A stretch of 63,097 bases of DNA, from UHGV virus genome UHGV-0209665; one strand, given 5' to 3'. The position numbers were made by a program, and so were the translations under genes. This DNA comes from a virus. The notes beneath the pieces were generated by a model. It did not search any database. It was not told the DNA's origin and saw only the letters and a list, made by a program, of their open reading frames with translations. Of the stretch, positions 529 through 53,996 are shown one piece after another. Every line of letters starts with the position of its first letter. The stretch's first letter is position 1.

Positions 529-1110
529 ATGGATATGAATAATTGCGTTGAATTTGTGGCTCTCACGAAAGAAGAAGTGGAGGAAATGATCGCAAAAGCA
601 GCCCTTGCAGGGGCGTCTGTCGCGGCCGAGACGCTGGAAAAGGCGCATCAGAAAGAACAGAAAGAAATGAAAGACCGCAGATTGCACAACACAAGGCTGC
701 TTCTTAGAAATTATAGGATGCTAAAGGAAAGCTGCTCAAAAGCAGTTTATCAGAAAGAGCATTCGGAAAAAACTACAGAAGAAGTCATAGAAGAACTTAT
801 GAGCATGAAGGCGAGCGATGGGGTAATTGTGAATTCAATCAAGGAGTCTGCAGAGCGGACGGGGATTATCATATCACATGTTGACCGGATGTTCGATGTT
901 TACAGGATGTACTGCGGAAAGTATGGAGAGAAGGAGAAACGACAGTATAAAGTGATAAAATCAATGTATATGACAAAAGAAAAGTCGTCAGCTGCGGAAC
1001 TTGCGAAAAAATTTAATGTAAGCAAGGTAACAATCTATGATGATATCAAGACTGCAGAGGAGAGACTTTCAGCATTATTTTTTGGAATTAACGGATTGCG
1101 TTTCTATTGA
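529..1110 (+). CDS. putative phage late transcriptional regulator (sigma-70 region-4 / ArpU-like HTH at C-terminus)
   Basis: C-terminal segment AAELAKKFNVSKVTIYDDIKTAEERL resembles a sigma region-4 HTH; located upstream of the packaging genes as in many Firmicutes phages. Confidence 0.45.
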   Translation: MDMNNCVEFVALTKEEVEEMIAKAALAGASVAAETLEKAHQKEQKEMKDRRLHNTRLLLRNYRMLKESCSKAVYQKEHSEKTTEEVIEELMSMKASDGVIVNSIKESAERTGIIISHVDRMFDVYRMYCGKYGEKEKRQYKVIKSMYMTKEKSSAAELAKKFNVSKVTIYDDIKTAEERLSALFFGINGLRFY

Positions 1111-1165
1111 TTTTATAAGGCTTAGACGTAAATAACGGATACCGTTAAGTTAAACTTGACTTAAT

Positions 1166-1194
1166 AACGGAAAACGAGTATGATAGGGGAGTAA
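1166..1194 (+). promoter_or_regulatory. sigma-A type promoter candidate (TTGACT-17-TATGAT)
   Basis: Near-consensus -35/-10 with 17-nt spacer in the intergenic region upstream of the transporter gene. Confidence 0.4.
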
Positions 1195-1213
1195 AATCTT
1201 ATCATGAGCCATG

Positions 1214-1242
1214 AGCCACTGGGGTTGCCCGGTGGCTTTTTT
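1214..1242 (+). terminator. intrinsic terminator-like hairpin (attenuator) in the 5' leader of the transporter operon
   Basis: AGCCACTGGGG-TTG-CCCGGTGGCT stem of about 10 bp followed by TTTTTT, starting about 13 nt after the predicted TSS. Confidence 0.45.
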
Positions 1243-1318
1243 CAGTTATTCTGGAGAGGAGGAAGAGTAAAAAAAGATGAGAGAATGCTCCTTTTAAAAA
1301 ACAAAAGGAGATTTTACA

Positions 1319-2707
1319 ATGAATGGGTTTGCGATTTTGGCAATCTATGCAGTGGTAATGATCACTGCAACACTAATATTTACCAAAAAGGAAAAAAACG
1401 TGGAAAGATTCTGCGTTGGAAGCCGTAAGGAAAATTGGATAATGTCTGCTTTGAGCATAGCAGCTACATGGATCTGGGCACCGGCACTGTTTGTATCTAC
1501 GGAAAAATCGTATACGAATGGGTTTGTCGGCCTTTTTTGGTTTTTGATCCCGAATGTATTATGTCTGATCCTTTTCATACCATTTGCGAAAAGGATACGG
1601 AGGGAAATGCCAGAAGGAATTACGCTGTCTGGATACATGAGAGATAAGTACAAATCGGACGGAGTTAAGCGTGTATACCTCTTTCAGCTCATGGGCCTTT
1701 CGGTATTATCGACAGGAGTGCAATTATTGGCCGGAAGCCAGGTGCTAAGCGCGGCAACTGGAATGCCGTTCCAGTTGGTTACGGTTTTATTGGCTGTCAT
1801 TGCTTTGTCTTACTCACTTTTTTCTGGAATAAAGGCTTCAATGCTGACGGACGCAATACAGATGGTTTTTATGCTGGCGGCAAGTACAGCATTCTTAATC
1901 ATGGCAATTAGAGCGGGCGGAACATCCGGAATACTGGAAGGAATACACGGAATATCTGGAAATTATACGTCGTTTTGGTCGGAAGATGGTATAGAGGTGT
2001 TCCTCGCATTCGGACTACCGACTACAATCGGCCTGCTTTCCGGACCATTTGGAGATCAATCGTTCTGGCAGAGGGCATTTGCTGTAAAGAGCAATCGGAT
2101 CGGCCGTGCGTTTTTTGTCGGAGCGATATTGTTCGGACTGGTACCGCTCTCCATGGGCATTATCGGATTTGCTGGAGCGGGAGCTGGTTACCAGGCGAAA
2201 GATCTTGGTGTCATCAACTTCGAACTGATTCAAGAGATGTTCCCAGCTTGGGCAGTACTGCCGTTCCTGTTCATGATTGTGTCTGGACTCTTGTCAACGG
2301 TAGACAGTAATTTATGTGCGGCATCATCGCTAGTGACAGATATGAGTGGTGGAAAGGAACTCAAAAAAACAAAGTGGGCTATGATTGCCCTGCTTGGAGT
2401 GGGTATTCTGATCGCCAATATACCGGGGATGACAGTCACGCACCTGTTCCTGTTTTATGGTACGCTGAGGGCGTCAACGCTGTTGCCGACTGTCATGACA
2501 TTGAAGGGAGTAAAGTTTACGCCTAAAGGAATTCAGTACGGAGTTATCTCTGCTTTGGCCGTAGGGCTCCCTATTTTCGCCTACGGAACGGTTTTGAACA
2601 GTGGACCATATAAAACACTTGGAAGCCTTGCAACAGTGCTGCTGGGTGGAATTGTAGGGATGATAGTTACAAAGGCGGAGGTGCGGCATGGAAAGAGTGC
2701 TAGGTAA
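1319..2707 (+). CDS. sodium:solute symporter (SSS)-like polytopic membrane transporter
   Basis: 462 aa with about 12 hydrophobic segments. N-terminal GSRKENWIMSALSIAATWIWAPALF resembles the SSS family signature region. AAGGAG RBS. The stop overlaps the next gene by 20 nt. Confidence 0.55.
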   Translation: MNGFAILAIYAVVMITATLIFTKKEKNVERFCVGSRKENWIMSALSIAATWIWAPALFVSTEKSYTNGFVGLFWFLIPNVLCLILFIPFAKRIRREMPEGITLSGYMRDKYKSDGVKRVYLFQLMGLSVLSTGVQLLAGSQVLSAATGMPFQLVTVLLAVIALSYSLFSGIKASMLTDAIQMVFMLAASTAFLIMAIRAGGTSGILEGIHGISGNYTSFWSEDGIEVFLAFGLPTTIGLLSGPFGDQSFWQRAFAVKSNRIGRAFFVGAILFGLVPLSMGIIGFAGAGAGYQAKDLGVINFELIQEMFPAWAVLPFLFMIVSGLLSTVDSNLCAASSLVTDMSGGKELKKTKWAMIALLGVGILIANIPGMTVTHLFLFYGTLRASTLLPTVMTLKGVKFTPKGIQYGVISALAVGLPIFAYGTVLNSGPYKTLGSLATVLLGGIVGMIVTKAEVRHGKSAR

Positions 2708-3470
2708 AAAGCAATCAATACAGAATGAAGACTGGCTAAAAGCCGGAAAGCGCATTGAAGAACTGGTTTCAAGAGAGGAACTGGATGAAAAGGTGCACTC
2801 AACCGTAGAGGAAATCCGGCAGATGACTGACGGGAAAAAAGCTGCATACGCATGGTCCGCCGGAAAGGATAGTCTCGTACTTGGAGAAATATGCCAGGAA
2901 AGCGGAGTTACTGATTGCATGATGGCAATTTGCAACCTAGAATACCCGGATTTTCTTAAATGGGTAGACCAGTACAAACCGAAAGGGCTTGAGATCATCA
3001 ACACTGGGCAGGATCTTGAGTGGCTGTCGAAACATTTGAATATGCTGTTTCCGCAGGACAGTGCCACGGCCGCAAAATGGTTTTCAATCGTTCAGCACAG
3101 AGCACAGGCAAAATATTATAAGGTTCGTGAGCTGGATCTGATTCTGCTTGGTCGGCGCCGCGCAGACGGCAACTATTGCGGAAGACGATCAAACATCTAT
3201 ACCGACGGAAAAGGAGTTACAAGATATAGCCCTTTAGCCGCATGGAGCCATGAAGAGATATTGGCCTATATCCATTATCACAATGTGCGGATGCCGCCAA
3301 TCTATAAGTGGAAGAAGGGATATTTGTGTGGCACACATCCATGGGCGGCAAGACAATGGACCGGATCCGTGGAAAATGGATGGCGCGAGGTATACGAAAT
3401 AGATGAAAGCATTGTAAGGGAAGCGGCGAAAGTTATTGACAGTGCTGCTGATTTTCTCAAAGCACTTTAA
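2688..3470 (+). CDS. PAPS reductase-like PP-loop ATP pyrophosphatase family protein (copy 1)
   Basis: SAGKDS PP-loop motif and overall PAPS reductase-like layout; translationally coupled to the transporter. Confidence 0.65.
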   Translation: MERVLGKKQSIQNEDWLKAGKRIEELVSREELDEKVHSTVEEIRQMTDGKKAAYAWSAGKDSLVLGEICQESGVTDCMMAICNLEYPDFLKWVDQYKPKGLEIINTGQDLEWLSKHLNMLFPQDSATAAKWFSIVQHRAQAKYYKVRELDLILLGRRRADGNYCGRRSNIYTDGKGVTRYSPLAAWSHEEILAYIHYHNVRMPPIYKWKKGYLCGTHPWAARQWTGSVENGWREVYEIDESIVREAAKVIDSAADFLKAL

Positions 3471-3530
3471 GTGGATTATTTGCAGATAATCCCATTGCTC
3501 CTTCAAATCAAGAATTTGGAGGAAAACGCT

Positions 3531-4160
3531 ATGAAACAATTAACCATGAAACTGAAAGATCTTGTTCGCCCAGAACGCAACATACGAATCCATACGGAAA
3601 AACAGTTGGAGGAGTTTGAAAGAAGCGTCAGGATGTTCGGACAGATCAGACCTATTGTGGTGGATGAAAACAACACAATTCTTGCCGGAAATGGATTGTA
3701 CGAAACCCTCTTGCGAATGAATCGGGAGGATGCGTTGGTTTATAAGTATGAAGATCTGACAGAGGCACAGAAGAAAAAACTGATGATTGCTGACAACAAG
3801 ATTTTCTCCCTCGGGATTGAGAACTTGGATACTTTGAATGAGTTTCTGGAAGAACTTAGTGGGGATCTGGATATCCCGGGATTTGATGAGGAAATTTTGA
3901 AGCAAATGGTAGCTGATGCTGACGAGATCACTGAGAAGATAGCGGAGTACGGGACGCTCGATGAGGATGAAGTACAAAAGATAAAAGAAGCGAACGAGAG
4001 AAGGGAGCAGCGCGAAGCGACAGGAAACACCGCGCAATATGAAACACCGACGTTTAGTGACGGCGATTCCGAAGGGCGCGACTCCGAGCCCGAACAGAAA
4101 CCGGCCGAAACAGGGAGATTCGTTATTTGCACGAAGTGTGGTGAGAAGATATGGCTGTAA
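3531..4160 (+). CDS. ParB N-terminal (ParB/Srx) domain protein (copy 1)
   Basis: KDLVRPERNIRIH...IRPIVVDENNTILAGNGLYE matches the ParB-like nuclease domain pattern. Start at internal ATG 3531 preferred (GGAGG RBS) over the 3471 start in the ORF track. Confidence 0.55.
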   Translation: MKQLTMKLKDLVRPERNIRIHTEKQLEEFERSVRMFGQIRPIVVDENNTILAGNGLYETLLRMNREDALVYKYEDLTEAQKKKLMIADNKIFSLGIENLDTLNEFLEELSGDLDIPGFDEEILKQMVADADEITEKIAEYGTLDEDEVQKIKEANERREQREATGNTAQYETPTFSDGDSEGRDSEPEQKPAETGRFVICTKCGEKIWL

Positions 4161-5302
4161 AACGCTGCGAATCGAATATAGATGTGGTAAAAGCTGCTGA
4201 AATACGTATAAAAAATGTGTTCCGGAACGGACTTCCTGTATTCTTTTCTTTCAGTGGAGGAAAAGACAGCCTGTGCGTAGCACAACTCATTGTGAATCTC
4301 GCAAACCGCGGGGAAATAGACATAAGGCAGTTGACTGTCCAGTTCATAGACGAAGAGGCGATCTTCCCGTGCATGGAAGAGATGACGAAGAAGTGGAGAC
4401 GAAAGTTTATGATGATGGGGGCGAAATTCGAATGGTTTTGCATAGAGGTAAAACATTTCAACTGCTTCAATGCCTTGTCGAATGATGAGACGTTTATATG
4501 CTGGGATTCAACAAAGCAAGACGTATGGGTAAGACGCCCGCCGGCATTTGCGATCAGGACGCACAAGCTACTTCGCCCGAGGATTGACGCATATCAGGAC
4601 TTCCTTCCCAGGACTTGCGCATCGGGAATCACACTGGTAGGTATTCGTACTGCCGAATCATTGCAGCGATTACAGAACATCGCGGCAATGACACAGGCCG
4701 GAAAGACCATGACGAACAAAAGACAGGTATTCCCGATATATGACTGGACCAATAATGATGTATGGCTGTACTTAAAACAGGAGAAGGTTGATATACCGGA
4801 AATATACCTGTTCTTATGGCAGTCAGGAAGTTCAAAGCAACAACTTAGAGTGTCACAGTTCTTTTCTGTAGATACGGCCAGATCTCTGGTAAAGATGAAT
4901 GAGTATTATCCGGATCTCATGGAACGGATTATACGCAGAGAACCAAATGCATATCTGGCGGCACTATACTGGGATAGCGAAATGTTTGGACGTAGTAGCA
5001 GGAAACGTAGGACGATGGAAGACGGTGCCAAGGAAAAGGATTACAAGAAGGAACTCATATATATGTTCTCGAACATGGATGTATTCTTTGATACACCTCA
5101 TAAAAGGAATATTGCGGAGAGATATCGGAACTTTTTTCTTCAGGTATCAGCCATTGCCAAACAAGAGGACTTCAAGCACATATATGAAGGACTCATTTCC
5201 GGCGATCCCAAAATGAGAACGTTCCGCGCGCTGTATCATCGGATTTACGGGAAATACATATCTGAGGCAAAGAAAACGGAGGAAAGCAGACATGGAAAAT
5301 AA
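4151..5302 (+). CDS. PAPS reductase-like PP-loop ATP pyrophosphatase family protein (copy 2, with ~130 aa C-terminal extension)
   Basis: FSFSGGKDSLCVAQL PP-loop; overlaps the upstream gene. Confidence 0.65.
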   Translation: MAVKRCESNIDVVKAAEIRIKNVFRNGLPVFFSFSGGKDSLCVAQLIVNLANRGEIDIRQLTVQFIDEEAIFPCMEEMTKKWRRKFMMMGAKFEWFCIEVKHFNCFNALSNDETFICWDSTKQDVWVRRPPAFAIRTHKLLRPRIDAYQDFLPRTCASGITLVGIRTAESLQRLQNIAAMTQAGKTMTNKRQVFPIYDWTNNDVWLYLKQEKVDIPEIYLFLWQSGSSKQQLRVSQFFSVDTARSLVKMNEYYPDLMERIIRREPNAYLAALYWDSEMFGRSSRKRRTMEDGAKEKDYKKELIYMFSNMDVFFDTPHKRNIAERYRNFFLQVSAIAKQEDFKHIYEGLISGDPKMRTFRALYHRIYGKYISEAKKTEESRHGK

Positions 5303-5813
5303 ATTGTTTGCCCCGTTGGGTACACTGCAATGGGTACCGCGGAGCATGTTAAAGCCAAACGATTACAACCCGAACAAAGTTTCGAAAGAAAATTTAAAGC
5401 TGCTCACACAGTCCATTCTTACCAATGGATGGACACTTCCGATTGTTGTAAGACCGGATTATACGATTATAGACGGATTCCACCGATGGACTGTTTCGGG
5501 CGAAGAGCCCCTATTGTCTATGCTTGGCGGGAAGGTGCCTATTGTTATCGTTGAACATTCGGAGAGATCGGAGGATATCTATGGCACCGTAACGCATAAC
5601 AGAGCGAGAGGTACCCACCTGTTAGAGCCTATGAAGGCGATTGTGAAAGAACTCATGAACGAGGGGAAAACCGTAGATGAAATAGGAAAACAGCTTGGAA
5701 TGAAGCCGGAAGAGATTTTCCGGTTATCTGACTTCTCGAAAGAGGACTTTCTTAACATGATGACCAAAGGAGTTACGGGGTTTTCTAAAGCAGAATATGT
5801 CACAAAAATCTGA
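5292..5813 (+). CDS. ParB-like nuclease domain protein (DGxHR-type, copy 2)
   Basis: LPIVVRPDYTIIDGFHRW: DGxHR motif of the ParB/sulfiredoxin/DndB-like superfamily. Confidence 0.65.
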   Translation: MENKLFAPLGTLQWVPRSMLKPNDYNPNKVSKENLKLLTQSILTNGWTLPIVVRPDYTIIDGFHRWTVSGEEPLLSMLGGKVPIVIVEHSERSEDIYGTVTHNRARGTHLLEPMKAIVKELMNEGKTVDEIGKQLGMKPEEIFRLSDFSKEDFLNMMTKGVTGFSKAEYVTKI

Positions 5814-5842
5814 TGTCATTGCGTTATAGTACATATAGAACA

Positions 5843-5877
5843 AAGACCGGCGGCGCGGAAGAAAGCGACTGCCGGTC
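5843..5877 (+). other. hairpin (8-bp perfect stem AGACCGGC/GCCGGTCT) between ParB-like gene and terS
   Basis: Inverted repeat seen directly; weak T-run downstream. Confidence 0.35.
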
Positions 5878-5909
5878 TATTTGTATCCGAAAAAAATACG
5901 ATATAGGAG

Positions 5910-6734
5910 GTGATGGCGGTGCCGAGAGCAAGAAGCCCTGACAGCATAGAGGCGGAGAAGTTGTATAAATCTGGCATGGCTCTTGTTGATATCGCAAAGA
6001 AACTCGGCAAGCCAGAGGGAACCGTCCGAAGATGGAAATCAACCCAAAAATGGGATGATAACGGTAAAAAAAAACAAGGCGAGCGTTCGCAAAAGAAAAG
6101 TGGATCAGAAAAAGCGAGCGTTCGTAAACGAGGCGGGCAGCCGGGGAACCAGAATTGCAAAGGAAAACAGAATGCGAAGGGGCATGGAGCTCCGAAGGGA
6201 ACACAAAATGCCTTAAAGCATGGAGGATATTCCGCAGTCTATTGGGATACGCTCGATGAAGACGAAAAAGAGCTAATTGAGACGATGCCGCAAGATGAAG
6301 AAGAAATACTGATAAATCAGATTATGCTTTTTACAGTCAGGGAGCGTCGGATCATGCAAGCGATTAATAAATACCGCAACGCAAAGGGCGGAGTATATGT
6401 GGCAGGAGTCACAAAGTTTGAAGAAAAGAGAGTTTTCAAAGACGATGAAGAAAGAGAGCTTTATGATAATCGGGTGCGAGATAAGGTAGAAAAGGGAGAC
6501 AGGCTTCCTGGTGAACATTATAGTCTGCAGACAATGACTGCCTCTACGGCAGACTTGGTAGCCCGTCTGGAAAAGGAGCTTACCTCCGTTCAGAGTCAAA
6601 AGACAAAAGCAGTTGATGCCTTGGCTAAGCTGCGGTTTGAGAAACAGAAAATTGCGGGAGAGTCGAAAGGCAACGAACTGGTGCGTACATGGGCGGAAAG
6701 TGTCGTGAAAGCAAGGAGGGAGAAGGATGGATAA
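5910..6734 (+). CDS. terS: terminase small subunit
   Basis: N-terminal HTH plus GAPKGTQNALKHG motif typical of phage terS. Precise start uncertain (GTG 5910, ATG 5913 or GTG 5919). Confidence 0.75.
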   Translation: MMAVPRARSPDSIEAEKLYKSGMALVDIAKKLGKPEGTVRRWKSTQKWDDNGKKKQGERSQKKSGSEKASVRKRGGQPGNQNCKGKQNAKGHGAPKGTQNALKHGGYSAVYWDTLDEDEKELIETMPQDEEEILINQIMLFTVRERRIMQAINKYRNAKGGVYVAGVTKFEEKRVFKDDEERELYDNRVRDKVEKGDRLPGEHYSLQTMTASTADLVARLEKELTSVQSQKTKAVDALAKLRFEKQKIAGESKGNELVRTWAESVVKARREKDG

Positions 6735-8205
6735 CAACATGGACTGGCTTAAAGACTTCCTCGATGAGAGCATTCCGCTATGGCGAAACGATCCAGTGAT
6801 GTACTTCCGTGAGGTGCTGTCCTTTGAACCGGATGAATGGCAGGCGGAAGCTGCCGAAGATCTGGCGCACAATCCGAAAGTCAGCATTAAGTCCGGACAG
6901 GGCGTAGGAAAGACCGGTCTGGAGGCTGCGGTATTCCTGTGGTTTATTACCTGTTTTCCGTACCCTCGTATTGTGGCAACGGCGCCAACGAAACAGCAGC
7001 TACACGATGTACTGTGGTCTGAAATTTCAAAGTGGATGAGCCACTCTCCTTTGCTCTCCAGGCTCCTAAAATGGACAAAGACATATGTTTATATGGTCGG
7101 CAATGAAAAGCGTTGGTTTGGGGTAGCGAGGACTGCTACAAAGCCAGAGAACATGCAGGGATTCCACGAGGATAATATGCTGTTCATCGTTGACGAAGCG
7201 TCCGGCGTAGCAGATCCGATCATGGAGGCTGTCCTCGGTACCTTGTCAGGAGAGAACAATAAGCTGCTTATGTGCGGTAACCCGACCAAGACTTCCGGAA
7301 CATTTTACGATAGCCATACACGGGATCGGGCCTTATATAAGTGCCATACTGTATCATCGGCAGACAGCAAGCGGACCAATAAAGAGAATATTGATTCGCT
7401 GATCAGGAAGTATGGGTGGGATTCCAATGTGGTGCGTGTGCGTGTCAGGGGAGAGTTCCCGAACCAAGAGGACGATGTGTTTATAGCTCTTTCAACAATA
7501 GAGCAATGCGGAAGCCGCTTGTTTGAACTTCCAGATGATAAGCGGTTGCCGTACATCATTTTAGGTGTTGACGTTGCGAGATTTGGAGACGATGAAACAG
7601 TCATATACAGAAACGCCAGAGGAAAGCTACAAATCGTAGCGAATAGGCGAGGGCAGGACTTGATGCGCACTGTAGGAGATATTGTCAGGCAGTACAAGAA
7701 AGTTCTCAAAGAATATCCGGATTATCGAGGAAGGATCTATGTAAATATAGACGATACCGGTCTTGGAGGCGGAGTTACCGACCGTTTGAGGGAAGTAAAG
7801 CGAGAACAGAGGCTTGGACGGCTGTATGTTATACCGATCAATGCTGCGGAGAAAATAGAAACTGACACCAAGGCGGGAAAAGACGCCGCAGAGCATTACA
7901 ACAATTTGACCACGCACATGTGGGCGACGCTGAAGGATCTCATGGAGAACAAAGAAGTCGAAATTGAGGAGGATCAGGAGACATTCGCACAGCTTTCGTC
8001 CCGGAAGTATTTCCTCGCGAGCAACGGAAAGTTGGAGGTCGAAAGCAAGAAGGAAATGAAAAAGCGAGGACTGGATTCACCGGACCGCGCAGATGCACTG
8101 GCATTATCTGTATATCTTGGAAAGATCAAGAAATATACCGGAAGTGCTCCGAATCAGGAAAGTGCTGCCGGCCTTGGAAAGAGCAGCTACTGGAGAAATA
8201 AATAG
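6727..8205 (+). CDS. terL: terminase large subunit
   Basis: ATPase Walker A (SGQGVGKT) and Walker B (LFIVDEASGV) followed by a nuclease domain; overlaps terS. Confidence 0.85.
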   Translation: MDNNMDWLKDFLDESIPLWRNDPVMYFREVLSFEPDEWQAEAAEDLAHNPKVSIKSGQGVGKTGLEAAVFLWFITCFPYPRIVATAPTKQQLHDVLWSEISKWMSHSPLLSRLLKWTKTYVYMVGNEKRWFGVARTATKPENMQGFHEDNMLFIVDEASGVADPIMEAVLGTLSGENNKLLMCGNPTKTSGTFYDSHTRDRALYKCHTVSSADSKRTNKENIDSLIRKYGWDSNVVRVRVRGEFPNQEDDVFIALSTIEQCGSRLFELPDDKRLPYIILGVDVARFGDDETVIYRNARGKLQIVANRRGQDLMRTVGDIVRQYKKVLKEYPDYRGRIYVNIDDTGLGGGVTDRLREVKREQRLGRLYVIPINAAEKIETDTKAGKDAAEHYNNLTTHMWATLKDLMENKEVEIEEDQETFAQLSSRKYFLASNGKLEVESKKEMKKRGLDSPDRADALALSVYLGKIKKYTGSAPNQESAAGLGKSSYWRNK

Positions 8206-8218
8206 GAGGTAGATATCT

Positions 8219-8527
8219 GTGGGCATAATGAAGAAGAAAGAAGCGTATGTCACAAAAGGAAACCGGCTGATTGAGGAAAAGAGACTGCCGGAAGCAACCG
8301 GAGTTGTTGTGGATGGACTAAATTTCTACCAGAACAAGATTATAAAGGCTTTGAATGGCCATCCCGTTGCGGACACTGCATTGGTAGTCGTAGCACTGAG
8401 AAATACGGCCGACATGCTTGAAAAACAGGAGCCGAACTGCAGAGGTTTAGTTGCCTGGCTTGATAAAACCACTACGAAACCAGAGCTGCAAGGACAGAAA
8501 CGGGTAGAAAAGACGAGAAAACGTTAG
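8219..8527 (+). CDS. hypothetical protein (102 aa)
   Basis: ORF with RBS between terL and portal. Confidence 0.35.
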   Translation: MGIMKKKEAYVTKGNRLIEEKRLPEATGVVVDGLNFYQNKIIKALNGHPVADTALVVVALRNTADMLEKQEPNCRGLVAWLDKTTTKPELQGQKRVEKTRKR

Positions 8528-31115: not shown

Positions 31116-32189
31116 ATGCCAAATTTTGATGATTTTAAGTTAGCGATTGAAGCGATGACGGGCGGTAAAAATACCGTCCTTTTTGATGACATGGAAATGC
31201 CGTCTGTTATGGTTCCGTTTCCAAAAATGAAAATTGCAGAAATTATGAGCGGCGGCAGTCAGAATATTCATCCGGCTTTTTCTGTGGGTGGCGTAGAGAA
31301 GGACGTTCTGTATATATCTAAATTCCAGAATATCGTACTGAATGACAGAGCTTACTCCCTTCCTATGCGTGATCCGAAGGTTTATGTTACGTTCGATCAG
31401 GCATTATCGTTTTGTCGCAATAAAGGAAAAGGCTGGAGTTTGAATCCGTATTCGCTGTGGAGTGCGATTGCTCTCTGGTGCAGAAAAAATGGAACTATGC
31501 CAAGAGGAAACAATTTCTGGGGTAAAGATTACACATACCAGCATGAAAAAGGTGTTCCCTGTGCATGGGAAAGCAAGGAAGCGGAATCACATCCAGGCGA
31601 ACCAGTACGTTGCCTTACCGGATCCGGACCAGCCACATGGTATCACAACTGGATGCCAGATGGCATTGCTGATTTGAATGGAAATGTGTGGGAATGGTGT
31701 GCTGGTATGCGTGTAAAGAATGGAGAAATCCAAATTATTCCGTATGCGAACAGTATGCTGGCAGAGACAAACATGGGAGATAAGTCAACGGAGTGGAAAG
31801 CTATCAAGAAGGACGGAACTCTTGTAGAACCTGGAACAGCAGATACATTGAAGTGGGATTGGGTATCAGGAAAGATTCAGCTTACTTCCGGTGCAGTATC
31901 CTACAAGACGGATCAGGGCAATGGTTGTCAGTATAAGGATATGACTCTCAACTCTTCTGTATCGGCAGCACCGGAAATTGCGAAGGCATTGTTGCTCTAT
32001 CCGGATGAGCCAGGCGGCGATTATGGTAGCGACTATCATTGGGTAAATACTGTCGGCGAGCGGCTGCCGTTATGCGGGGGCGGGTGGTACCATGGTGCCG
32101 ACGCCGGCGTTTTCGACGTCAATCTGTACTATCCCCGTTCCAGCTCCTACTCCACCGTTGGCTTCCGCTCCGCTTTTGTAGATCTGTAA
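31116..32189 (+). CDS. DGR target protein: tail fibre / receptor-binding protein with C-terminal FGE-sulfatase (C-type lectin fold) domain
   Basis: GNVWEWC and RLP...GG(G)W...GFR motifs of the formylglycine-generating-enzyme/CLec fold; VR at the extreme 3' end. Confidence 0.75.
   Translation: MPNFDDFKLAIEAMTGGKNTVLFDDMEMPSVMVPFPKMKIAEIMSGGSQNIHPAFSVGGVEKDVLYISKFQNIVLNDRAYSLPMRDPKVYVTFDQALSFCRNKGKGWSLNPYSLWSAIALWCRKNGTMPRGNNFWGKDYTYQHEKGVPCAWESKEAESHPGEPVRCLTGSGPATWYHNWMPDGIADLNGNVWEWCAGMRVKNGEIQIIPYANSMLAETNMGDKSTEWKAIKKDGTLVEPGTADTLKWDWVSGKIQLTSGAVSYKTDQGNGCQYKDMTLNSSVSAAPEIAKALLLYPDEPGGDYGSDYHWVNTVGERLPLCGGGWYHGADAGVFDVNLYYPRSSSYSTVGFRSAFVDL
32059..32174 (+). repeat. DGR variable repeat (VR)
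   Basis: 116-bp match to the TR at 32705-32820 with 10 mismatches, every one at a TR adenine. Confidence 0.85.
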
Positions 32190-32704: not shown

Positions 32705-32820
32705 AGCGGCTGCCGTTATGCGGGGGCAGGTGGAACAATGGTGCCAACGCCGGCGTTTTCAACGTCAATCTGAACAATCCCCGTTCCAACTCCAACTCCA
32801 ACGTTGGCTTCCGCTCCGCT
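32705..32820 (+). repeat. DGR template repeat (TR)
   Basis: Non-coding copy of VR. The six-frame ORF 32683..32904 covering it is not a gene. Confidence 0.85.
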
Positions 32821-33008
32821 CTACCTTCGTTGGTCAGATGTTGCAAACTCAAGGGTTTGCATCCAGAACAGAAGGGTAAAGGATTCTATTTCCATGCTGA
32901 ATAAGCAAAAAAGGAAGGGACCTGATCCGGCCCCGTTGGATGCGGAATGCCGAGAGTAAGACAATCTGAAATTCGCAATGCCTAAAATTTAAATAATGGA
33001 GGGATAGT

Positions 33009-34118
33009 GTGTCCATAAAAAATATTTATTCAGAAATCTGTTCGTTTGATACATTGCTGCGGGCTGAAAGAAATGTAAGGAATGGAAAACGGTATGGTAG
33101 GAAAGAGCTAAGCTTCTGGGCGAATCTCGAAGAGAATATATACCGCATTTCCGAATCAATCAAAAGCCTCGATTTTCCTCCGGACTGTTACACATCTTTT
33201 TATGTATATGAACCCAAATTGAGAAAGATTGTGTCAGCAGATTACACGACCAAGATCATACAAAGGGCAGCTTACGATGTCATAAACCCTTTGGTGTGCA
33301 AGGGGTTTATATCAGATACATATGCGTGTATAAAAGGCAGAGGGCAGTTAAATGCCATGAAGCGCCTTGCGTCATGGGTGGACTATGTTCACGAAAGTGG
33401 AGATACTTGGTATTATCTGAAGATGGATATCGAAAAATTTTTTTACAGAATAGACCACGAAATCTTAATGAAGATCATACGAAAGAAAATAAGTGATAAA
33501 AAAGCACTAAGGTTGATGGAACATTATATTTGCGAGGCATCAAGCCCTTTTGGACTTCCGCTTGGAGTCACGAATCCTATGGATATCCCGGAAGAAGATA
33601 TGCTATGGGACGTTGGCATCACAATAGGAGGCGGATTGTCGCATATGTATGGGAATATGTATCTGGATCCTGCAGATCAGTTAGCAAAAAGAGAGCTTGG
33701 AATACAGAAGTATATCAGGCTGATGGACGACTCTGTCATTTTGCATCGGGATAAAGAAAAATTACATCAGTATAAAAAAGAATTTTCCGATTTTTTTGGA
33801 GATGTATTGCATTTAAGACTTAATGGAAAAACAGCGATACGCCCAATTAATCAAGGAATGGAATTTGTTGGATATCGTATTTGGCCACATAAAGTGAGAC
33901 TTAGAAAATCAACGAGTCTGCGAATGAAACGTCGTCTTAAACGAGTGCAGGATGATTATCGAGATTACAGGTTGTCGTTTGAAAAGGCGAATGACACAGT
34001 GATGAGTTACGCCGCATTAATGAAACATTGTGATTGCGAAGCCCTTAAAAAGAAAATTTTTGATAATTTTGTCCTTACTCATAATCCGAAGGAGGTAATA
34101 ACAAAAAATGGGCGATAG
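33009..34118 (+). CDS. DGR reverse transcriptase
   Basis: RT motifs including the IRLMDD (YxDD-like) box. GTG start with GGAGGG RBS. Immediately downstream of TR. Confidence 0.8.
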   Translation: MSIKNIYSEICSFDTLLRAERNVRNGKRYGRKELSFWANLEENIYRISESIKSLDFPPDCYTSFYVYEPKLRKIVSADYTTKIIQRAAYDVINPLVCKGFISDTYACIKGRGQLNAMKRLASWVDYVHESGDTWYYLKMDIEKFFYRIDHEILMKIIRKKISDKKALRLMEHYICEASSPFGLPLGVTNPMDIPEEDMLWDVGITIGGGLSHMYGNMYLDPADQLAKRELGIQKYIRLMDDSVILHRDKEKLHQYKKEFSDFFGDVLHLRLNGKTAIRPINQGMEFVGYRIWPHKVRLRKSTSLRMKRRLKRVQDDYRDYRLSFEKANDTVMSYAALMKHCDCEALKKKIFDNFVLTHNPKEVITKNGR

Positions 34119-37707: not shown

Positions 37708-37735
37708 AAAGAGAGAGGCTTAACCCCTCTCTTTT
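37705..37735. terminator. bidirectional terminator between convergent genes
   Basis: AGAGAGAGG-CTTAA-CCCCTCTCTTTTTT hairpin. Confidence 0.5.
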
Positions 37736-38175
37736 TTCGTTTCTTGAATATTTGTTAATAAGGACGTTCTCAGAAAGTCATAATCAAGTCCAAAGTCCTT
37801 GTATCCTTGATATATGGTATCTATATATCTCTCGCTTGGTTGTCCTGGCTTCGCGCCTTTAAACATAATATAAACCATGGCCTTTATGTGCGAATCGTCC
37901 GAAATAGTCACGTAGACGTTTTGCTTAGAATAAAACCGAGGATAGCCCTCATATATATCAAGGTTTCTTTCGTCTGAGTGCTGAATGCCCCATACTACAA
38001 CGGGAACCCGATACCCCTTTTTTCGACGTATTGTTGCGTATGATCCTGTCTTACTTCCCCTGTAAATCAACTCCCAGTTATTCAGATAACCGGTATATAC
38101 CGGTTTGGCACTTGGACAACGGTGCCTCATTTGTTGTTTGTTCAGATTACTCCCATAAGCTACATATAATTTCAT
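37720..38175 (-). CDS. AIG2/gamma-glutamyl cyclotransferase (GGCT)-like protein
   Basis: N-terminal LYVAYGSNLN (YGSNx) motif and conserved Glu in LDIYEGYP. Confidence 0.7.
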   Translation of the reverse strand: MKLYVAYGSNLNKQQMRHRCPSAKPVYTGYLNNWELIYRGSKTGSYATIRRKKGYRVPVVVWGIQHSDERNLDIYEGYPRFYSKQNVYVTISDDSHIKAMVYIMFKGAKPGQPSERYIDTIYQGYKDFGLDYDFLRTSLLTNIQETKKERG

Positions 38176-38191
38176 AATTAATCCTCCTCTC

Positions 38192-39115
38192 TTACGCTGC
38201 TATGGTTGCGGTGTTTTCTTTAAGATTCTTCATCATGTGGAATCTGCAAGTTTTAAATTCATCTCCGTACAACCCAAGCCTGTTTGTTAAAATGTGGTAC
38301 ATCAAAGTTACTTTCTTATCAGCAGAGTACCCAGAAACGCTTCTGAAGACAACTTTGCCGGTTGACTCTATTGACCATGCGGACAAAGCGAGACAAAACT
38401 GGATGTATGCTTTGATTCGACCAGCATGCAATGTGCTATTGAAAAGCCTAAATTCTACAGTCCCTTTTGAAAAAAAGCTGTGAAGATTAAGTGCATGATA
38501 TCTTGTTTCATTGTAATGGTTGTGGTTTACGCCGCCCCAATAATGATCGTTCGCCTCGCTATACCAAATTTGCTCTGCTTTATCTTTTGTGAGATTAGAT
38601 TCCTTTTTCATTGTATCGTAAAGGCTCTTGCAGATTGGTTTGCACCAGCGATTTTTTCTTTCCCCAACTCCCAATGCTTCATATATGATTTCTTGTCTGG
38701 ATAACATGAAGTTTACCATTCTACGAAGTGATGTGGCTGTGTGGTTTGCACCGTCAATATGGATATGAATACCGCAGCTACTATGAGGAACACCGCCGAT
38801 TTCTTTGAATTTTCGAATGATGTTTTGCAAAGTCTCAATGTCCTCATATTTAAGAGGTGGTGTAACGAATTCGACTCTGTATTCATCTATATTTGCGGTT
38901 CCGACATTTGCCTTTGGCGAAATTGAACTATCTCGCATCACTTTCCATGTTCTTCGTTGTGAATCCTTTATGGTTCTTGTGTAGTACGCATCTCTTTTTG
39001 GACCGGAAATTGTTCCGCCAACGATTTCTTGAACAGCCTTTGCGGCCATTTCTCTTGTTATACCGGTGAATTCTACTTCAACTCCAAATTTTTGCTTTTT
39101 TAAAAGTTCTGACAT
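38192..39115 (-). CDS. amidoligase (Amidoligase_2 / glutamine-synthetase-like carboxylate-amine ligase) family protein
   Basis: N-terminal FGVEVEF motif; size ~300 aa; coupled by a 16-nt spacer to the downstream GGCT-like gene. Confidence 0.65.
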   Translation of the reverse strand: MSELLKKQKFGVEVEFTGITREMAAKAVQEIVGGTISGPKRDAYYTRTIKDSQRRTWKVMRDSSISPKANVGTANIDEYRVEFVTPPLKYEDIETLQNIIRKFKEIGGVPHSSCGIHIHIDGANHTATSLRRMVNFMLSRQEIIYEALGVGERKNRWCKPICKSLYDTMKKESNLTKDKAEQIWYSEANDHYWGGVNHNHYNETRYHALNLHSFFSKGTVEFRLFNSTLHAGRIKAYIQFCLALSAWSIESTGKVVFRSVSGYSADKKVTLMYHILTNRLGLYGDEFKTCRFHMMKNLKENTATIAA

Positions 39116-39865: not shown

Positions 39866-41368
39866 CTATTTTCCACCTATTCCATACAGTTTGCTGTATT
39901 TCGGAATCGTTGTATCAACCATAAACTGATCAAGATTTTTTAAGCTTCCCTGCGACAATTCACAAGATGATATGGCATCAGAGTACATGGCCATAATAAG
40001 ATCTTTGAGAGTTGCCGAAGGTTTAAAAGAAGAAATAGTCTGTATAATTGCATCCCCAAAAGCTATCAAATCCAGATACGTTTCCAGTTTATATCCGTAA
40101 ACCATTTCTGATTCAATATCAATCCCATACTTTATAAAGATGTTTTTGTTGTTTTTTCGTATATGTTCGTTTCCTTGCTGCTCAGCCGTTGCCAGGGCGT
40201 GTTGGCTGAGCCGGCCAAGCGGCGAACCGGGTACCATATCTACAACAATGCCATCGGCTCCGTTTTCGGCGACGGATGAAGTCTCCTGTTCTTTTTTAAT
40301 AACACCTTCTATTCTTTGCGCTAGCTCCCTGTCTGTTCCAGGATAAAGGTGTGAGTAAGTATCCCACGTGGTTTTTATGGAATCATGCCCGAGGCGACGG
40401 GAGATCTCTTCGATTGCAAATCCCATATTAACCAGCATGGCCACATGGCTGTGTCTCAGATCATGAACTCTTATCTCTTTGTCTCCAGAACGCTTGATCA
40501 TCCTTTTGAATTCGCTGTAAAGTCCGCCCTTTTTGAAATAGAATATACGTTCTTCCGGTTCAAGGCACATACTGTCTATGAATTCAAGAACTTCTGCATG
40601 TATAGAATTTGGTATTGTGATTTTCCGTATGCTCCGCTTTGTCTTTGGAGTTAAAAAATATTCAATACCATCTACTACGGCATAGTTCTTATTTACATCT
40701 ACAATTGCGGTATCTCGTGGAAAATCTTCCGGTGTAAGCGCAAGCAGCTCCCCCTCTCTCATGCCGCTGTAAAAAAGCAGCTTGAAAGCAACTATATAAG
40801 ACGGTTTCTGTTCAAACTGCATAGTATGTTCAAATTCTTCTTTGGTCCAGAAATTCATTTCTTCAGCTCGGCTTTTCCCGATGCTTCCTGCGACATAACA
40901 TGGATTTATTCCAAGTTTGTAGTATTTGACTGCATAGTTAAACACAGCCGAAAGCTGTGAGTTTATTGAGTGCAGATATGTTTCGGCATAAGGCTCACCT
41001 TTTTCATTACGATAATCAATTAAGCTATTCTGCCACCTTCTAACAAGATCTGCATCAATGTCGCATATCTGCATTTTCCCGAAATAAGGAAGCAGCTTTG
41101 TTTCGACAATGTATCTCTTACCCTTTAATGTTGTCGGCTTCAGTCTGGATTCCATATCTTCCATATAATTTCCGGCCAAAGAGGAAAAGAGGATTGTTGG
41201 GCTTTTAGAATACTTATCCAAGAACAGCCGTTCATACTCTTTTGCAGCTCCTTTTGTATCAAATCCACGTTTGCATTTATGCTTTTTTTCGCCGAGCCAG
41301 TCTGTGTAGTAAAAATTTGCATACCATTTTGTTTTCCCGTCCTTTGTTTGATATTTATATGCAGGCAT
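39866..41368 (-). CDS. int: tyrosine integrase with N-terminal AP2-like DNA-binding domain and ~150-aa C-terminal extension
   Basis: HDLRHSH and TWDTYSHLY catalytic motifs; N-terminal KYQTKDGKTKWYANFYY AP2-like region. Confidence 0.85.
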   Translation of the reverse strand: MPAYKYQTKDGKTKWYANFYYTDWLGEKKHKCKRGFDTKGAAKEYERLFLDKYSKSPTILFSSLAGNYMEDMESRLKPTTLKGKRYIVETKLLPYFGKMQICDIDADLVRRWQNSLIDYRNEKGEPYAETYLHSINSQLSAVFNYAVKYYKLGINPCYVAGSIGKSRAEEMNFWTKEEFEHTMQFEQKPSYIVAFKLLFYSGMREGELLALTPEDFPRDTAIVDVNKNYAVVDGIEYFLTPKTKRSIRKITIPNSIHAEVLEFIDSMCLEPEERIFYFKKGGLYSEFKRMIKRSGDKEIRVHDLRHSHVAMLVNMGFAIEEISRRLGHDSIKTTWDTYSHLYPGTDRELAQRIEGVIKKEQETSSVAENGADGIVVDMVPGSPLGRLSQHALATAEQQGNEHIRKNNKNIFIKYGIDIESEMVYGYKLETYLDLIAFGDAIIQTISSFKPSATLKDLIMAMYSDAISSCELSQGSLKNLDQFMVDTTIPKYSKLYGIGGK

Positions 41369-53984: not shown

Positions 53985-53996
53985 GGAGGGATAGAT

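What the first reader, a model, noticed from the sequence alone, without database searches (positions are those of the whole stretch)
2688..5813. Tandem duplicated PAPS-reductase-like + ParB/DGxHR-nuclease-like gene pairs immediately upstream of terS
Four overlapping genes alternate PP-loop ATP pyrophosphatase (SAGKDS, SGGKDS) and ParB-superfamily domains (the second with the DGFHR motif shared with DndB-type proteins). This pairing recalls DndB/DndC and SspB/SspD of DNA phosphorothioation. It could represent a phage DNA-modification (anti-restriction) module, or a packaging-associated nuclease/ATPase accessory to the terminase. The duplication into two diverged pairs, and the coupling to a transporter, are both unusual.
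Basis: inference. Interest (0 to 1): 0.65.

Follow-up and report, generated by a model that had tools for sequence, protein, structure and literature searches.

The report
Transporter-linked IbrA/IbrB-type phage gene cassette
The four genes are real and form a widely conserved phage cassette: an IbrA/IbrB pair, a second unrelated-looking ATP-pyrophosphatase/ParB pair and a membrane transporter, always just ahead of the DNA-packaging genes; it is neither a sulfur-metabolism gene set nor a Dnd system, and its function is still unknown.

Summary
G1 (2688-3470) and G3 (4151-5302) are PAPS-reductase-fold PP-loop proteins. G2 (3531-4160) and G4 (5292-5813) are ParB N-domain proteins. terS starts 96 nt downstream. 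"Tandem duplicated" is misleading: the two pairs share only superfamily-level similarity (about 15% identity).

G3 and G4 are full-length homologues of IbrA and IbrB (hhalign E 4e-39 and 2.5e-31). G1 belongs to a separate, well-populated family (573 clusters at 50% identity) with no close solved structure.

In 62 loci with a G1 relative, from five bacterial phyla, every untruncated locus also has IbrA and IbrB, and 58 have G2. 54 have a membrane transporter directly upstream of G1: the SSF type in 48, a different multi-pass protein in 6. All 17 Bacteroidota-type loci add a signal-peptide protein. Wherever the genes downstream were examined in loci that look like prophages, packaging or head genes follow; terminases of at least three Pfam families were seen.

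Curated scores for DndC, DndB and CysH are missed by far, and no Fe-S cysteine set is conserved.

Best reading, inferred only: a late-expressed, DNA-targeted modification machine that uses ATP adenylation and an imported small nitrogenous compound. The gene content and its conservation are firm. The function is not.

The parts
529..1110 (+). HTH protein upstream of the cassette. Candidate late-gene regulator; context only.
   Evidence: Pfam HTH_11 (E 8e-8) and YlxM-like HTH; PHROG 1558. It occupies the position of the 'RinA-like activator' in Faecalibacterium phage FP_Taranis. Its role is inferred from position alone.
1156..1318 (+). Leader of the cassette. Elements: sigma-70-like promoter (1156-1184), invariant GTAAAAT box (1191-1197), terminator-like hairpin (1213-1238), Shine-Dalgarno-like GGAGAGGAGG (1253-1262), anti-Shine-Dalgarno-like GCTCCTT (1287-1293), and the real Shine-Dalgarno sequence (1304-1310).
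   Evidence: Consensus scan and sequence. The layout recurs upstream of the transporter in diverged Firmicute loci, with hairpin stems that differ in sequence but still pair. No Rfam family matches.
1319..2707 (+). Sodium:solute-symporter-family transporter, first gene of the cassette. Its stop overlaps the G1 start by 20 nt.
   Evidence: Pfam SSF, 82 bits against a cut-off of 22.8. PHROG 20720, E 3e-214. Directly upstream of G1 in 48 of 62 loci. The closest solved structures are the DUR3 urea symporter (E 7e-26) and an SLC5A7-type choline transporter (E 2e-22).
2688..3470 (+). G1: stand-alone PP-loop ATP-pyrophosphatase of the PAPS-reductase fold (SAGKDS at residues 57-62). It is a distinct family of about 260 residues.
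   Evidence: Pfam PAPS_reduct and PHROG 424. 573 clusters at 50% identity. Invariant S57, G59, K60, D61, G155, R157. AlphaFold2 model with pLDDT 97. Best PDB matches are PAPS reductase, TtuA, CysD and FAD synthase at TM about 0.5. No invariant cysteine.
3531..4160 (+). G2: ParB N-domain protein with a degenerate nucleotide-site motif (AGNGL here, CGHGKK in distant orthologues), an acidic linker and an invariant C-terminal CPxCG.
   Evidence: PHROG 620, E 3e-45. Profile vs Noc/ParB structures. Alignment A4. Start codon and ribosome-binding site. Present in 58 of 62 loci.
4151..5302 (+). G3: IbrA homologue, with a PP-loop (SGGKDS at residues 35-40) PAPS-reductase-fold domain and an IbrA-type C-terminal domain.
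   Evidence: PHROG 2302, E 6e-97. hhalign vs IbrA of Escherichia phage PhiR5_2: E 4e-39 over 327 columns. Invariant motifs in alignment A2.
5292..5813 (+). G4: IbrB homologue, with a ParB/Srx-type N-domain (DGFHR at residues 61-65, NRARG at 103-107) and a helix-turn-helix.
   Evidence: Pfam ParB_N and PHROG 2159, E 9e-72. hhalign vs IbrB: E 2.5e-31. Aligns to the ParB N-domain plus HTH of 4umk and 1vz0. Invariant columns in alignment A3.
5910..8205 (+). terS (5910-6734) and terL (6727-8205), directly downstream. Context only.
   Evidence: NCBIfam TerS_not_xtmA, 142 bits against a cut-off of 120. PHROG 1889 for terS; PHROG 5902 (best hit, no assigned function) and PHROG 2 (terminase large subunit, E 6e-45) for terL. 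In other loci the cassette sits upstream of terminases of other Pfam families.

Best explanation
IDENTITY (shown). This is a conserved phage cassette. In order it holds: a membrane transporter, PP-loop enzyme G1, the degenerate ParB-like protein G2, an IbrA homologue (G3) and an IbrB homologue (G4). It sits at the head of the packaging and morphogenesis gene block.

MECHANISM (inferred; not demonstrated for any member). The cassette is transcribed with the late genes. The steps I think most likely are:
1. The transporter imports a small compound. Its closest solved relatives carry urea, polyamines or choline, so a small nitrogenous compound is the best guess.
2. IbrB (G4), which keeps an intact DGxHR/NRARG nucleotide site and a helix-turn-helix, binds DNA.
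3. G2 has lost the equivalent site residues in this phage and probably acts as a partner or scaffold.
4. The two PP-loop enzymes use ATP to adenylate a target group, which a nucleophile then displaces. This is the chemistry of TilS, QueC, CysD and DndC.

The outcome would be a covalent modification of replicated phage DNA before or during packaging. No cysteine set is conserved, so a non-sulfur modification is more likely than phosphorothioation or thiolation.
For: Homology:
- Pfam, PHROG and NCBIfam assignments.
- G3 and G4 are full-length IbrA and IbrB homologues.
- The PP-loop is invariant in both enzyme families.
- DGFHR, NRARG and the HTH are invariant in G4.

Linkage:
- 60 of 62 loci with a G1 relative also have IbrA and IbrB; the other 2 are truncated. 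58 have G2.
- The loci come from Clostridia, C. difficile, Bacteroidales, Actinomadura, Deinococcus and Chloroflexia.

Position:
- The cassette lies directly upstream of terS/terL of the Terminase_6N, Terminase_3 and Terminase_6C types, or of head genes.

Link to transport:
- The SSF gene overlaps G1 by 20 nt and is present in 48 loci.
- In 6 loci it is replaced, at the same position, by a different protein with at least 7 membrane spans. This protein is a homologue of Taranis gp35.
- All 17 loci with the G4-G3 gene order (the five GTDB ones are titled Bacteroidales, Bacteroidaceae or Muribaculaceae) add a signal-peptide protein of about 200 residues between the transporter and G1.
- The transporter profile is closest to DUR3 and a choline transporter.

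Expression and precedent:
- ibrA transcripts rose 73-fold together with terminase, portal and capsid transcripts when prophages were induced in pig gut (PMC5550749).
- ParB-like NTPases are already known as partners in DNA modification: DndB and DpdB (PMC10853773 and PMC12839542).
Against: - No member of the IbrA/IbrB family has a demonstrated biochemical activity. The only phenotype I know of (from memory and citations; Sandt et al. 2002 was not readable here) is activation of prophage eib gene expression.
- No modified base or DNA-modification signature was or could be examined.
- IbrA/IbrB pairs occur without a transporter and without G1 or G2 (E. coli and S. thermophilus phages). Five non-gut loci also lack a detectable transporter. 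An imported substrate therefore cannot be essential to the core chemistry.
- The substrate guess rests only on distant transporter similarity.
- Late expression is inferred from position.
- A position next to the terminase genes would equally fit a packaging or regulatory role.
Confidence: 0.4

Rival explanations
1. Late-gene or prophage-gene co-activator. IbrB binds DNA near late promoters or the packaging region. IbrA, and here G1 and G2 as well, act with it to switch on or enhance late transcription. This is what the inherited annotation 'co-activator of prophage gene expression' says.
For: - Annotation of the homologues.
- The eib-activation phenotype as cited in PMC4541368 and PMC10434257.
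- G4 has a helix-turn-helix.
- The cassette lies between a putative late regulator and terS, behind a promoter-plus-terminator leader.
Against: - A pure transcription factor needs neither two intact ATP-pyrophosphatase active sites nor a dedicated transporter. Both are conserved.
- The cassette is itself downstream of the late leader, so it would be made together with its supposed targets.
- The eib effect could be an indirect result of a modification activity.
Confidence: 0.18
2. Small-molecule or nucleotide-pool enzyme set. The imported compound is adenylated or converted into a metabolite or signal that helps the phage, for example against a host defence. The ParB/Srx-fold proteins act as NTP-using enzymes, not as DNA binders.
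For: - The transporter linkage, its non-orthologous replacement and the extra signal-peptide protein.
- PP-loop relatives such as CysD and FAD synthase act on small molecules.
- ParB/Srx proteins have been proposed as nucleotide-degrading effectors (PMC10853773).
Against: - G4 retains a ParB-type HTH that aligns with the DNA-binding domain of chromosomal ParB.
- The constant position at the packaging genes is not explained.
- Core IbrA/IbrB pairs exist without any transporter.
Confidence: 0.15
3. Packaging accessory. The ParB-like proteins mark or nick the pac/cos region, or load onto DNA as clamps that hand it to the terminase, and the PP-loop proteins are cofactors.
For: - Immediate adjacency to terS/terL in every prophage-like locus where the downstream genes were examined, across terminase families.
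- ParB-superfamily nucleases exist (PMC12839542).
Against: - The cassette associates with several unrelated terminase families, so a specific protein-protein partnership is unlikely.
- Most phages with the same terminase types lack it.
- No conserved palindromic site was found between the cassette and terS across loci.
- The transporter linkage is unexplained.
Confidence: 0.1
4. Dnd/Ssp-like DNA phosphorothioation, with host IscS supplying the sulfur.
For: - Weak local similarity of G3 to DndC models over residues 157-212 (TIGR03183, E 1e-6; PADLOC DndC, E 4e-9).
- The pairing of a ParB-like protein with a PP-loop protein recalls DndB and DndC.
Against: - 27.9 bits against a cut-off of 290.4 for DndC. 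No DndB hit.
- The cysteines that would bind an Fe-S cluster or carry a persulfide are not conserved. G3 C97 is Ala in E. coli-phage IbrA. C105 and C117 are lost in Taranis. G1 has no invariant cysteine.
- No DndD, DndE or DndA-like gene among the 32 window ORFs scanned.
Confidence: 0.05
5. Auxiliary metabolic genes for host sulfate assimilation (viral 'cysH'), as such genes are commonly annotated in virome studies.
For: - A Pfam PAPS_reduct hit.
- The literature files these genes under cysH or 'host metabolism' (bioRxiv 10.1101/2021.01.05.425418; PMC11318856).
Against: - NCBIfam cysH and PAPS-reductase models score 17-25 bits against cut-offs of 154-254.
- The catalytic C-terminal cysteine motif is not conserved. 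The window's LCGTH is not kept in the family.
- The genes are always linked to ParB-type proteins and packaging genes.
Confidence: 0.02

Closest known systems
[quoted passage not shown] First described on the E. coli ECOR-9 ibrAB island and annotated in many phage genomes, including Faecalibacterium phage FP_Taranis gp37/gp38.
   Same: - G3 and G4 are homologous over their whole length (hhalign E 4e-39 and 2.5e-31; 45% and 75% identity to Taranis gp37 and gp38).
- Same adjacency and overlapping genes.
- Taranis also has the G2-type ParB protein, a membrane protein upstream and terS/terL downstream.
   Different: - This locus adds a second PP-loop enzyme (G1) of another family.
- It uses an SSF-type transporter in place of the Taranis gp35-type membrane protein.
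- Pfam DUF3440 is not detected in G3 although the region aligns.
- E. coli and S. thermophilus phage versions have only the IbrA/IbrB pair.
DndB/DndC of DNA phosphorothioation, and SspD/SspE
   Same: A ParB-superfamily protein with a DGxHR-type motif is paired with a PAPS-reductase-fold PP-loop ATP pyrophosphatase, and the target is presumed to be DNA.
   Different: - Curated model scores are missed by tenfold.
- There are no Fe-S or persulfide cysteines.
- There are no DndA, DndD or DndE partners.
- The cassette is phage-borne and next to packaging genes, not in a defence island.
CysH PAPS/APS reductase and CysD
   Same: The same fold. These are the best Foldseek and HMM matches for G1.
   Different: TM only about 0.5 and 14-20% identity. 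The catalytic cysteine motif is not conserved. The scores are far below family cut-offs.
Chromosomal and plasmid ParB/Noc CTPase clamps
   Same: G4 aligns with the N-domain plus HTH of ParB. G2 aligns with the N-domain only.
   Different: - The GERRxRA arginine motif is replaced by DGFHR in G4 and AGNGL in G2.
- There is no C-terminal dimerisation domain.
- No ParA-type (CbiA/ParA-family) match among the 32 window ORFs scanned.
Phage lambda NinC (PAPS-reductase-family protein of the nin region)
   Same: A phage-encoded PAPS-reductase-fold protein of unknown function.
   Different: - It is not an orthologue of G1 (hhalign probability 25%).
- It lies in the replication/nin region, not at the packaging genes.
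- It has no ParB partner.

Membership tests
IbrA | N-terminal PP-loop (SGGKDS) PAPS-reductase-fold domain | tested here: met
   G3: Pfam PF01507, E 1e-12. SFSGGKDS is invariant in alignment A2.
IbrA | Full-length homology including the C-terminal DUF3440-type domain | tested here: inconclusive
   hhalign of A2 against IbrA of Escherichia phage PhiR5_2 gives E 4e-39 over 327 columns, reaching residues 226-368 of that protein, where Pfam finds DUF3440. However, Pfam DUF3440 itself does not hit G3 or Taranis gp37 at E<=0.01.
IbrA/IbrB | Adjacent, co-directional IbrA and IbrB genes | tested here: met
   G3 and G4 overlap by 11 nt. The pair is adjacent in 60 of 62 related loci, in either order.
IbrA/IbrB | Activates prophage (eib) gene expression | not testable with these tools
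   This is an experimental phenotype, and the original paper is not in the held library.
IbrB | ParB/Srx N-domain with DGxHR, plus an NRARG motif and a C-terminal HTH | tested here: met
   G4: Pfam ParB_N, E 1e-7. D61, G62, H64, R65 and N103-G107 are invariant. hhalign against IbrB gives E 2.5e-31.
DndC (and SspD, BrxP) | Reaches the curated family score (TIGR03183 cut-off 290.4 bits) | tested here: not met
   G3 scores 27.9 bits, over residues 157-212 only. G1 has no DndC hit. PADLOC DndC gives 34 bits and BrxP 18-26 bits, all local.
DndC | Conserved cysteines for a [4Fe-4S] cluster and sulfur relay | tested here: not met
   G1 has no invariant cysteine in 46 sequences. In G3, C97 is Ala in E. 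coli-phage IbrA, and C105 and C117 are absent in Taranis gp37.
Dnd system | Linked dndA, dndD and dndE genes | tested here: not met
   No cysteine desulfurase, ABC/SMC-type ATPase or DndE-like hit among the 32 window ORFs scanned against Pfam. Not every small ORF was scanned.
DndB | Match to DndB/DGQHR family models | tested here: not met
   NCBIfam at E<=0.01 lists only parB_part, Noc and RepB for G4, and parB_part for G2. PADLOC lists none for G4, and only the N-terminal region of a type II methyltransferase model for G2.
CysH PAPS/APS reductase | Reaches curated scores and has the conserved catalytic C-terminal cysteine (ECGLH-type) | tested here: not met
   Scores of 17-25 bits against cut-offs of 154-254. 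G1 has LCGTH (residues 213-217), but C214 is Val in 7 of 24 close relatives and is not in the family consensus.
Canonical ParB CTPase | GERRxRA arginine motif in the N-domain | tested here: not met
   G4 has DGFHRW and G2 has AGNGLY at the aligned position.
Sodium:solute symporter family | Reaches the Pfam PF00474 gathering score | tested here: met
   82.1 bits against a cut-off of 22.8. It falls below every NCBIfam equivalog cut-off (PanF 71 vs 328; PutP 58 vs 515), so the substrate is unassigned.

The most novel reading that the evidence does not exclude
A previously unrecognised, transporter-fed DNA hypermodification pathway that is widespread in gut phages. The phage imports a small amine-type compound through its own inner-membrane transporter, and in Bacteroidota hosts also through its own outer-membrane protein. 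Two PP-loop adenylating enzymes attach it to phage DNA. They are guided by a heteromeric pair of ParB-like proteins, one active and one degenerate, just before packaging. This would also mean that part of what human-gut virome studies count as 'cysH' auxiliary metabolic genes is DNA-modification machinery. How large that part is was not measured here.
Probability: 0.2. Interest if true: 0.85.

Novelty: new variant of a known kind. Interest (0 to 1): 0.55.

Why it matters
1. Annotation. Genes of this type are routinely scored as viral cysH or 'host sulfur metabolism'. One survey reports that human-associated samples hold the largest share of viral cysH. A prophage study lists exactly this PHROG 424 + 2302 combination as 'host metabolism'. 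The tests here show these proteins are not CysH.

2. Function of IbrA/IbrB. This is one of the more common phage gene pairs with no known function. Three new comparative clues make it experimentally approachable:
- the fixed partnership with a second PP-loop/ParB pair;
- a dedicated transporter that can be replaced by a different one;
- an added signal-peptide protein in phages of hosts with two membranes.
Cultured systems carrying versions of the cassette exist: phage FP_Taranis, C. difficile and Enterocloster prophages.

3. If the target is DNA, this would be a new class of phage DNA modification that depends on an imported precursor.

Tried and rejected
- Megablast of 1200-8300 against 50,697 phage records found no match. 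Protein-level searches were needed.
- An AlphaFold2 run of G3 without an alignment gave pLDDT 37 and was discarded. That spent one of the two prediction slots, so no usable IbrA model was obtained.
- Foldseek of the good G1 model against PDB and BFVD gave only generic PP-loop neighbours. The afdb50 library was unavailable.
- The Fe-S or persulfide cysteine hypothesis was tested on alignments and rejected.
- Orthology of G1 to lambda NinC was rejected.
- A riboswitch upstream of the transporter, which could have named the ligand, was not found: no Rfam family reached significance (best FuFi-1, 19 bits against 59.6).
- A parS-like palindrome shared across loci between the cassette and terS was not found.
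- Ten full-text literature searches found no biochemical characterisation of IbrA/IbrB-type phage proteins. Sandt et al. 2002 and Maindola et al. 2014 are not in the held library.
- The idea that the transporter is an independent lysogenic-conversion gene was judged unlikely. Its stop overlaps the G1 start, it lies behind the same leader, and it is replaced in place by another membrane protein.

Full report
**What is there**

The window looks like a complete temperate tailed-phage genome of about 63 kb. It has an integrase, baseplate genes, an endolysin and a replication module. Related viral contigs are 63.8 and 64.3 kb long.

On the + strand the region reads as follows:
- an HTH protein (529-1110);
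- a 208-nt leader;
- an SSF-family transporter (1319-2707);
- G1 (2688-3470, 260 aa);
- G2 (best start ATG 3531, to 4160, 209 aa);
- G3 (4151-5302, 383 aa);
- G4 (5292-5813, 173 aa);
- terS (5910-6734) and terL (6727-8205).

G1 and G3 hit Pfam PAPS_reduct and carry intact PP-loops (SAGKDS and SGGKDS). G4 hits Pfam ParB_N and has DGFHR. G2 is ParB-like by PHROG 620 (E 3e-45) and by a profile search against Noc/ParB structures.

- G1 and G2 are 60 nt apart and do not overlap.
- The two pairs are not a recent duplication. BLASTP sees only the PP-loop between G1 and G3 and one short stretch between G2 and G4. Profile-profile comparison of G1 with G3 gives 15% identity, E 4.5e-11.

**What the proteins are**

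*G3 and G4.* They are IbrA and IbrB.
- Profiles built from relatives align end to end with the annotated IbrA and IbrB of Escherichia phage PhiR5_2 (hhalign E 4e-39 over 327 columns; E 2.5e-31 over 160 columns).
- A tblastn search with G3 finds 222 phage records, some of them annotated IbrA. Hosts include Flavobacterium, Mycobacterium, S. thermophilus, Arthrobacter, Bacillus and Faecalibacterium.
- G4 keeps the invariant motifs NDYNPN, IIDGFHRW and HNRARG and a helix-turn-helix. This HTH aligns with the DNA-binding domain of chromosomal ParB.

*G1.* It belongs to a separate family of stand-alone proteins of about 260 residues.
- The family holds 1,247 clusters at 90% identity with E<=1e-3, and 573 at 50% identity.
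- Named members come from Sellimonas, Enterocloster and Clostridium prophages.
- An AlphaFold2 model built with 46 sequences is very confident (pLDDT 97).
- Its best solved neighbours are only generic: PAPS reductase, TtuA, CysD and FAD synthase at TM about 0.5.

*G2.* It has a ParB N-domain whose nucleotide-site motif is degenerate here (AGNGL; distant orthologues have CGHGKK). An acidic linker follows, then an invariant C-terminal CPxCG.

**Families tested and rejected**

- DndC: G3 scores 27.9 bits against a cut-off of 290.4. G1 does not hit it.
- DndB: no hit for G2 or G4.
- CysH and PAPS reductase: 17-25 bits against cut-offs of 154-254.
- Cysteines: G1 has no invariant cysteine. In G3, C97 is invariant among close relatives but is alanine in E. 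coli-phage IbrA, and C105 and C117 are missing in Taranis gp37. A DndC- or TtuA-type Fe-S site and a CysH-type catalytic cysteine are therefore not supported.
- Lambda NinC is not an orthologue of G1.

**Comparative genomics: the main result**

I collected 32 IMG/VR loci and 30 GTDB species genomes that encode a G1 relative. The relatives go down to about 35% identity. The hosts include Lachnospiraceae, Oscillospiraceae, Clostridioides difficile, Bacteroidales, Actinomadura, Deinococcus and Chloroflexia.

- 60 of the 62 loci have IbrA and IbrB next to G1. The other two end at a contig edge.
- 58 have G2.
- The gene order is G1-G2-G3-G4 in Firmicute-type loci and G1-G2-G4-G3 in Bacteroidota-type loci. 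Four loci (two Actinomadura, Deinococcus, one unidentified bacterium) have G2-G1-G3-G4, and the Chloroflexia locus has G3-G4-G1.
- Where I examined the downstream genes in loci that look like prophages, terS/terL or head genes follow. The terminases seen belong to different Pfam families: Terminase_6N, Terminase_3 and Terminase_6C. One Actinomadura locus is followed by an aldehyde dehydrogenase instead.

The cassette is thus an old, mobile unit that sits at the head of the packaging block whatever the packaging machinery.

Faecalibacterium phage FP_Taranis, which is cultured, has a reduced version: RinA-like activator, membrane protein, G2-type ParB, IbrA, IbrB, terS, terL. E. coli and S. thermophilus phages have only IbrA and IbrB. 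In S. thermophilus the pair follows an SNF2 helicase.

**The transporter belongs to the cassette**

- The SSF gene overlaps G1 by 20 nt and is present in 48 of 62 loci, at 40-96% identity.
- In six Clostridia loci that lack it, the same position holds a different protein with at least 7 membrane spans. This protein is homologous to Taranis gp35 (37-48% identity).
- Three further loci are cut upstream of G1.
- Only five loci, none from gut Firmicutes or Bacteroidota, show no transporter.
- All 17 loci with the G4-G3 order carry an extra protein of about 200 residues with a signal peptide, between the transporter and G1. The five GTDB loci among them are titled Bacteroidales, Bacteroidaceae or Muribaculaceae. 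The protein matches no Pfam family.

Three observations therefore argue for co-function: replacement in place by a non-orthologous membrane protein, an added envelope protein in hosts with two membranes, and overlap of the transporter's stop with the G1 start. I read this as evidence that the cassette needs an imported compound. That is an inference.

A profile of the transporter is closest to DUR3 urea symporters (E 7e-26) and to an SLC5A7-type choline transporter (E 2e-22). Iodide, glucose, monocarboxylate and vitamin carriers all score E 1e-9 or weaker. This is a weak hint of a small nitrogenous substrate.

**Regulation**

The leader has a sigma-70-like promoter (1156-1184), an invariant GTAAAAT box (1191-1197), a terminator-like hairpin (1213-1238) and then a Shine-Dalgarno-like / anti-Shine-Dalgarno-like pair. 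The same layout recurs in diverged Firmicute loci, and the hairpin stems differ in sequence while still pairing. No Rfam family matches.

A promoter followed by a terminator fits an antitermination-controlled late operon. A pig-gut metatranscriptome reports ibrA induced 73-fold together with terminase, portal and capsid genes (PMC5550749).

**How it most likely works**

Shown:
- the gene content, the homologies and the linkage;
- intact ATP-pyrophosphatase motifs in both enzymes;
- an intact nucleotide site plus HTH in G4, and a degenerate site in G2;
- no conserved redox or Fe-S cysteines;
- the transporter linkage.

Inferred:
- The cassette is expressed late.
- G4 binds DNA, perhaps paired with G2 in the way ParB N-domains pair.
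- G1 and G3 adenylate a target group, which an imported nucleophile then displaces.
- The result is a modification of replicated phage DNA before packaging.

I put this at about 0.4. The rivals are a late-gene co-activator (0.18), small-molecule or nucleotide chemistry not directed at DNA (0.15), a packaging accessory (0.10), true phosphorothioation (0.05) and sulfur-assimilation genes (0.02).

**What is known, and what is new**

The held literature only annotates these genes:
- as IbrA/IbrB 'co-activators' (PMC4541368, PMC4490671);
- as viral cysH (bioRxiv 10.1101/2021.01.05.425418, which notes a DUF3440-bearing clade);
- as 'host metabolism', for the same PHROG 424 + 2302 combination in an Enterocloster prophage (PMC11318856).

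I found no biochemical study. G3 and G4 are members of a known but uncharacterised family. The four-gene architecture with its transporter appears not to have been described as a unit. I class it as a new variant of a known kind.

**Verdict**

The feature is real and strongly conserved. It is misnamed by current annotation and mechanistically open. Interest is moderate to high because the comparative clues make a common mystery gene pair testable.

Noticed in passing
window 1156-1318: The leader upstream of the transporter has a sigma-70-like promoter, an invariant GTAAAAT box (1191-1197), a terminator-like hairpin (1213-1238), then GGAGAGGAGG (1253-1262) and GCTCCTT (1287-1293), which could pair with each other or with the real Shine-Dalgarno sequence (1304-1310). 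The layout recurs in diverged Firmicute loci, with hairpin stems that differ in sequence but still pair. No Rfam family matches. It may be an antitermination or translational control element.
   Followed up: partly
L022:6396-7004; L062:7321-7980 (and 15 other loci): A protein of about 200 residues with a signal peptide and no Pfam match lies between the SSF transporter and G1 in all 17 Bacteroidota-type loci and in none of the others. It is a candidate outer-membrane component of the import route.
   Followed up: partly
L001:4326-5327 (Taranis gp35); L052:6829-8007; also L031, L051, L054, L057, L059: A second family of proteins with at least 7 membrane spans (no Pfam match) occupies the transporter position in loci without the SSF gene. 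It shares an 'S-I-A-A-T-W'-like N-terminal motif with the SSF protein, so it may be a very distant relative.
   Followed up: partly
window 32819-32961, 33009-34118, 31116-32189: An Rfam RT-14 RNA (51.2 bits, above its gathering score) lies next to a reverse transcriptase ORF. An upstream ORF has a weak FGE-sulfatase-type match (20.1 bits, below the 23.3 cut-off). This looks like a diversity-generating retroelement at the tail-fibre end.
   Followed up: partly
window 38192-39115 (-), 37720-38175 (-): An Amidoligase_2 gene (E 2e-62) and a neighbouring small ORF lie on the minus strand beside the integrase (39866-41368). A similar amidoligase is listed in an Enterocloster prophage paper.
   Followed up: no
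window 52189-53028, 56486-57484, 53013-56159, 58299-59372, 46931-50773: The replication region also encodes an N6 DNA methyltransferase, a DUF5131 protein, PcfK- and PcfJ-like proteins, a sliding-clamp homologue and a 1,280-residue protein with an N-terminal calcineurin-like phosphoesterase domain.
   Followed up: no
window 3324-3338 (G1 residues 213-217): G1 has LCGTH, which resembles the catalytic ECGLH motif of CysH. The cysteine is valine in 7 of 24 close relatives and is absent from the family consensus, so the resemblance is probably not functional.
   Followed up: yes
window 5843-5877: There is an imperfect hairpin (AGACCGGCGGC...GCCGGTCT) between G4 and terS. It is retained in close relatives, but the distant loci share no common palindrome there.
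   Followed up: partly
L013, L014, L047, L052, L054, L057, L059, L064 (100-130 nt after the cassette): Several Clostridia prophages share a GTTGCAAC-type palindrome, and some also AAGGTACTGTGAC, between the cassette and the packaging genes. This could be a regulatory or pac-related site for one terminase type.
   Followed up: no
L037:2767-4005: In S. thermophilus phage CHPC1148 an SNF2-family helicase gene lies directly upstream of IbrA/IbrB and overlaps it. This is another DNA-related partner for the pair.
   Followed up: no
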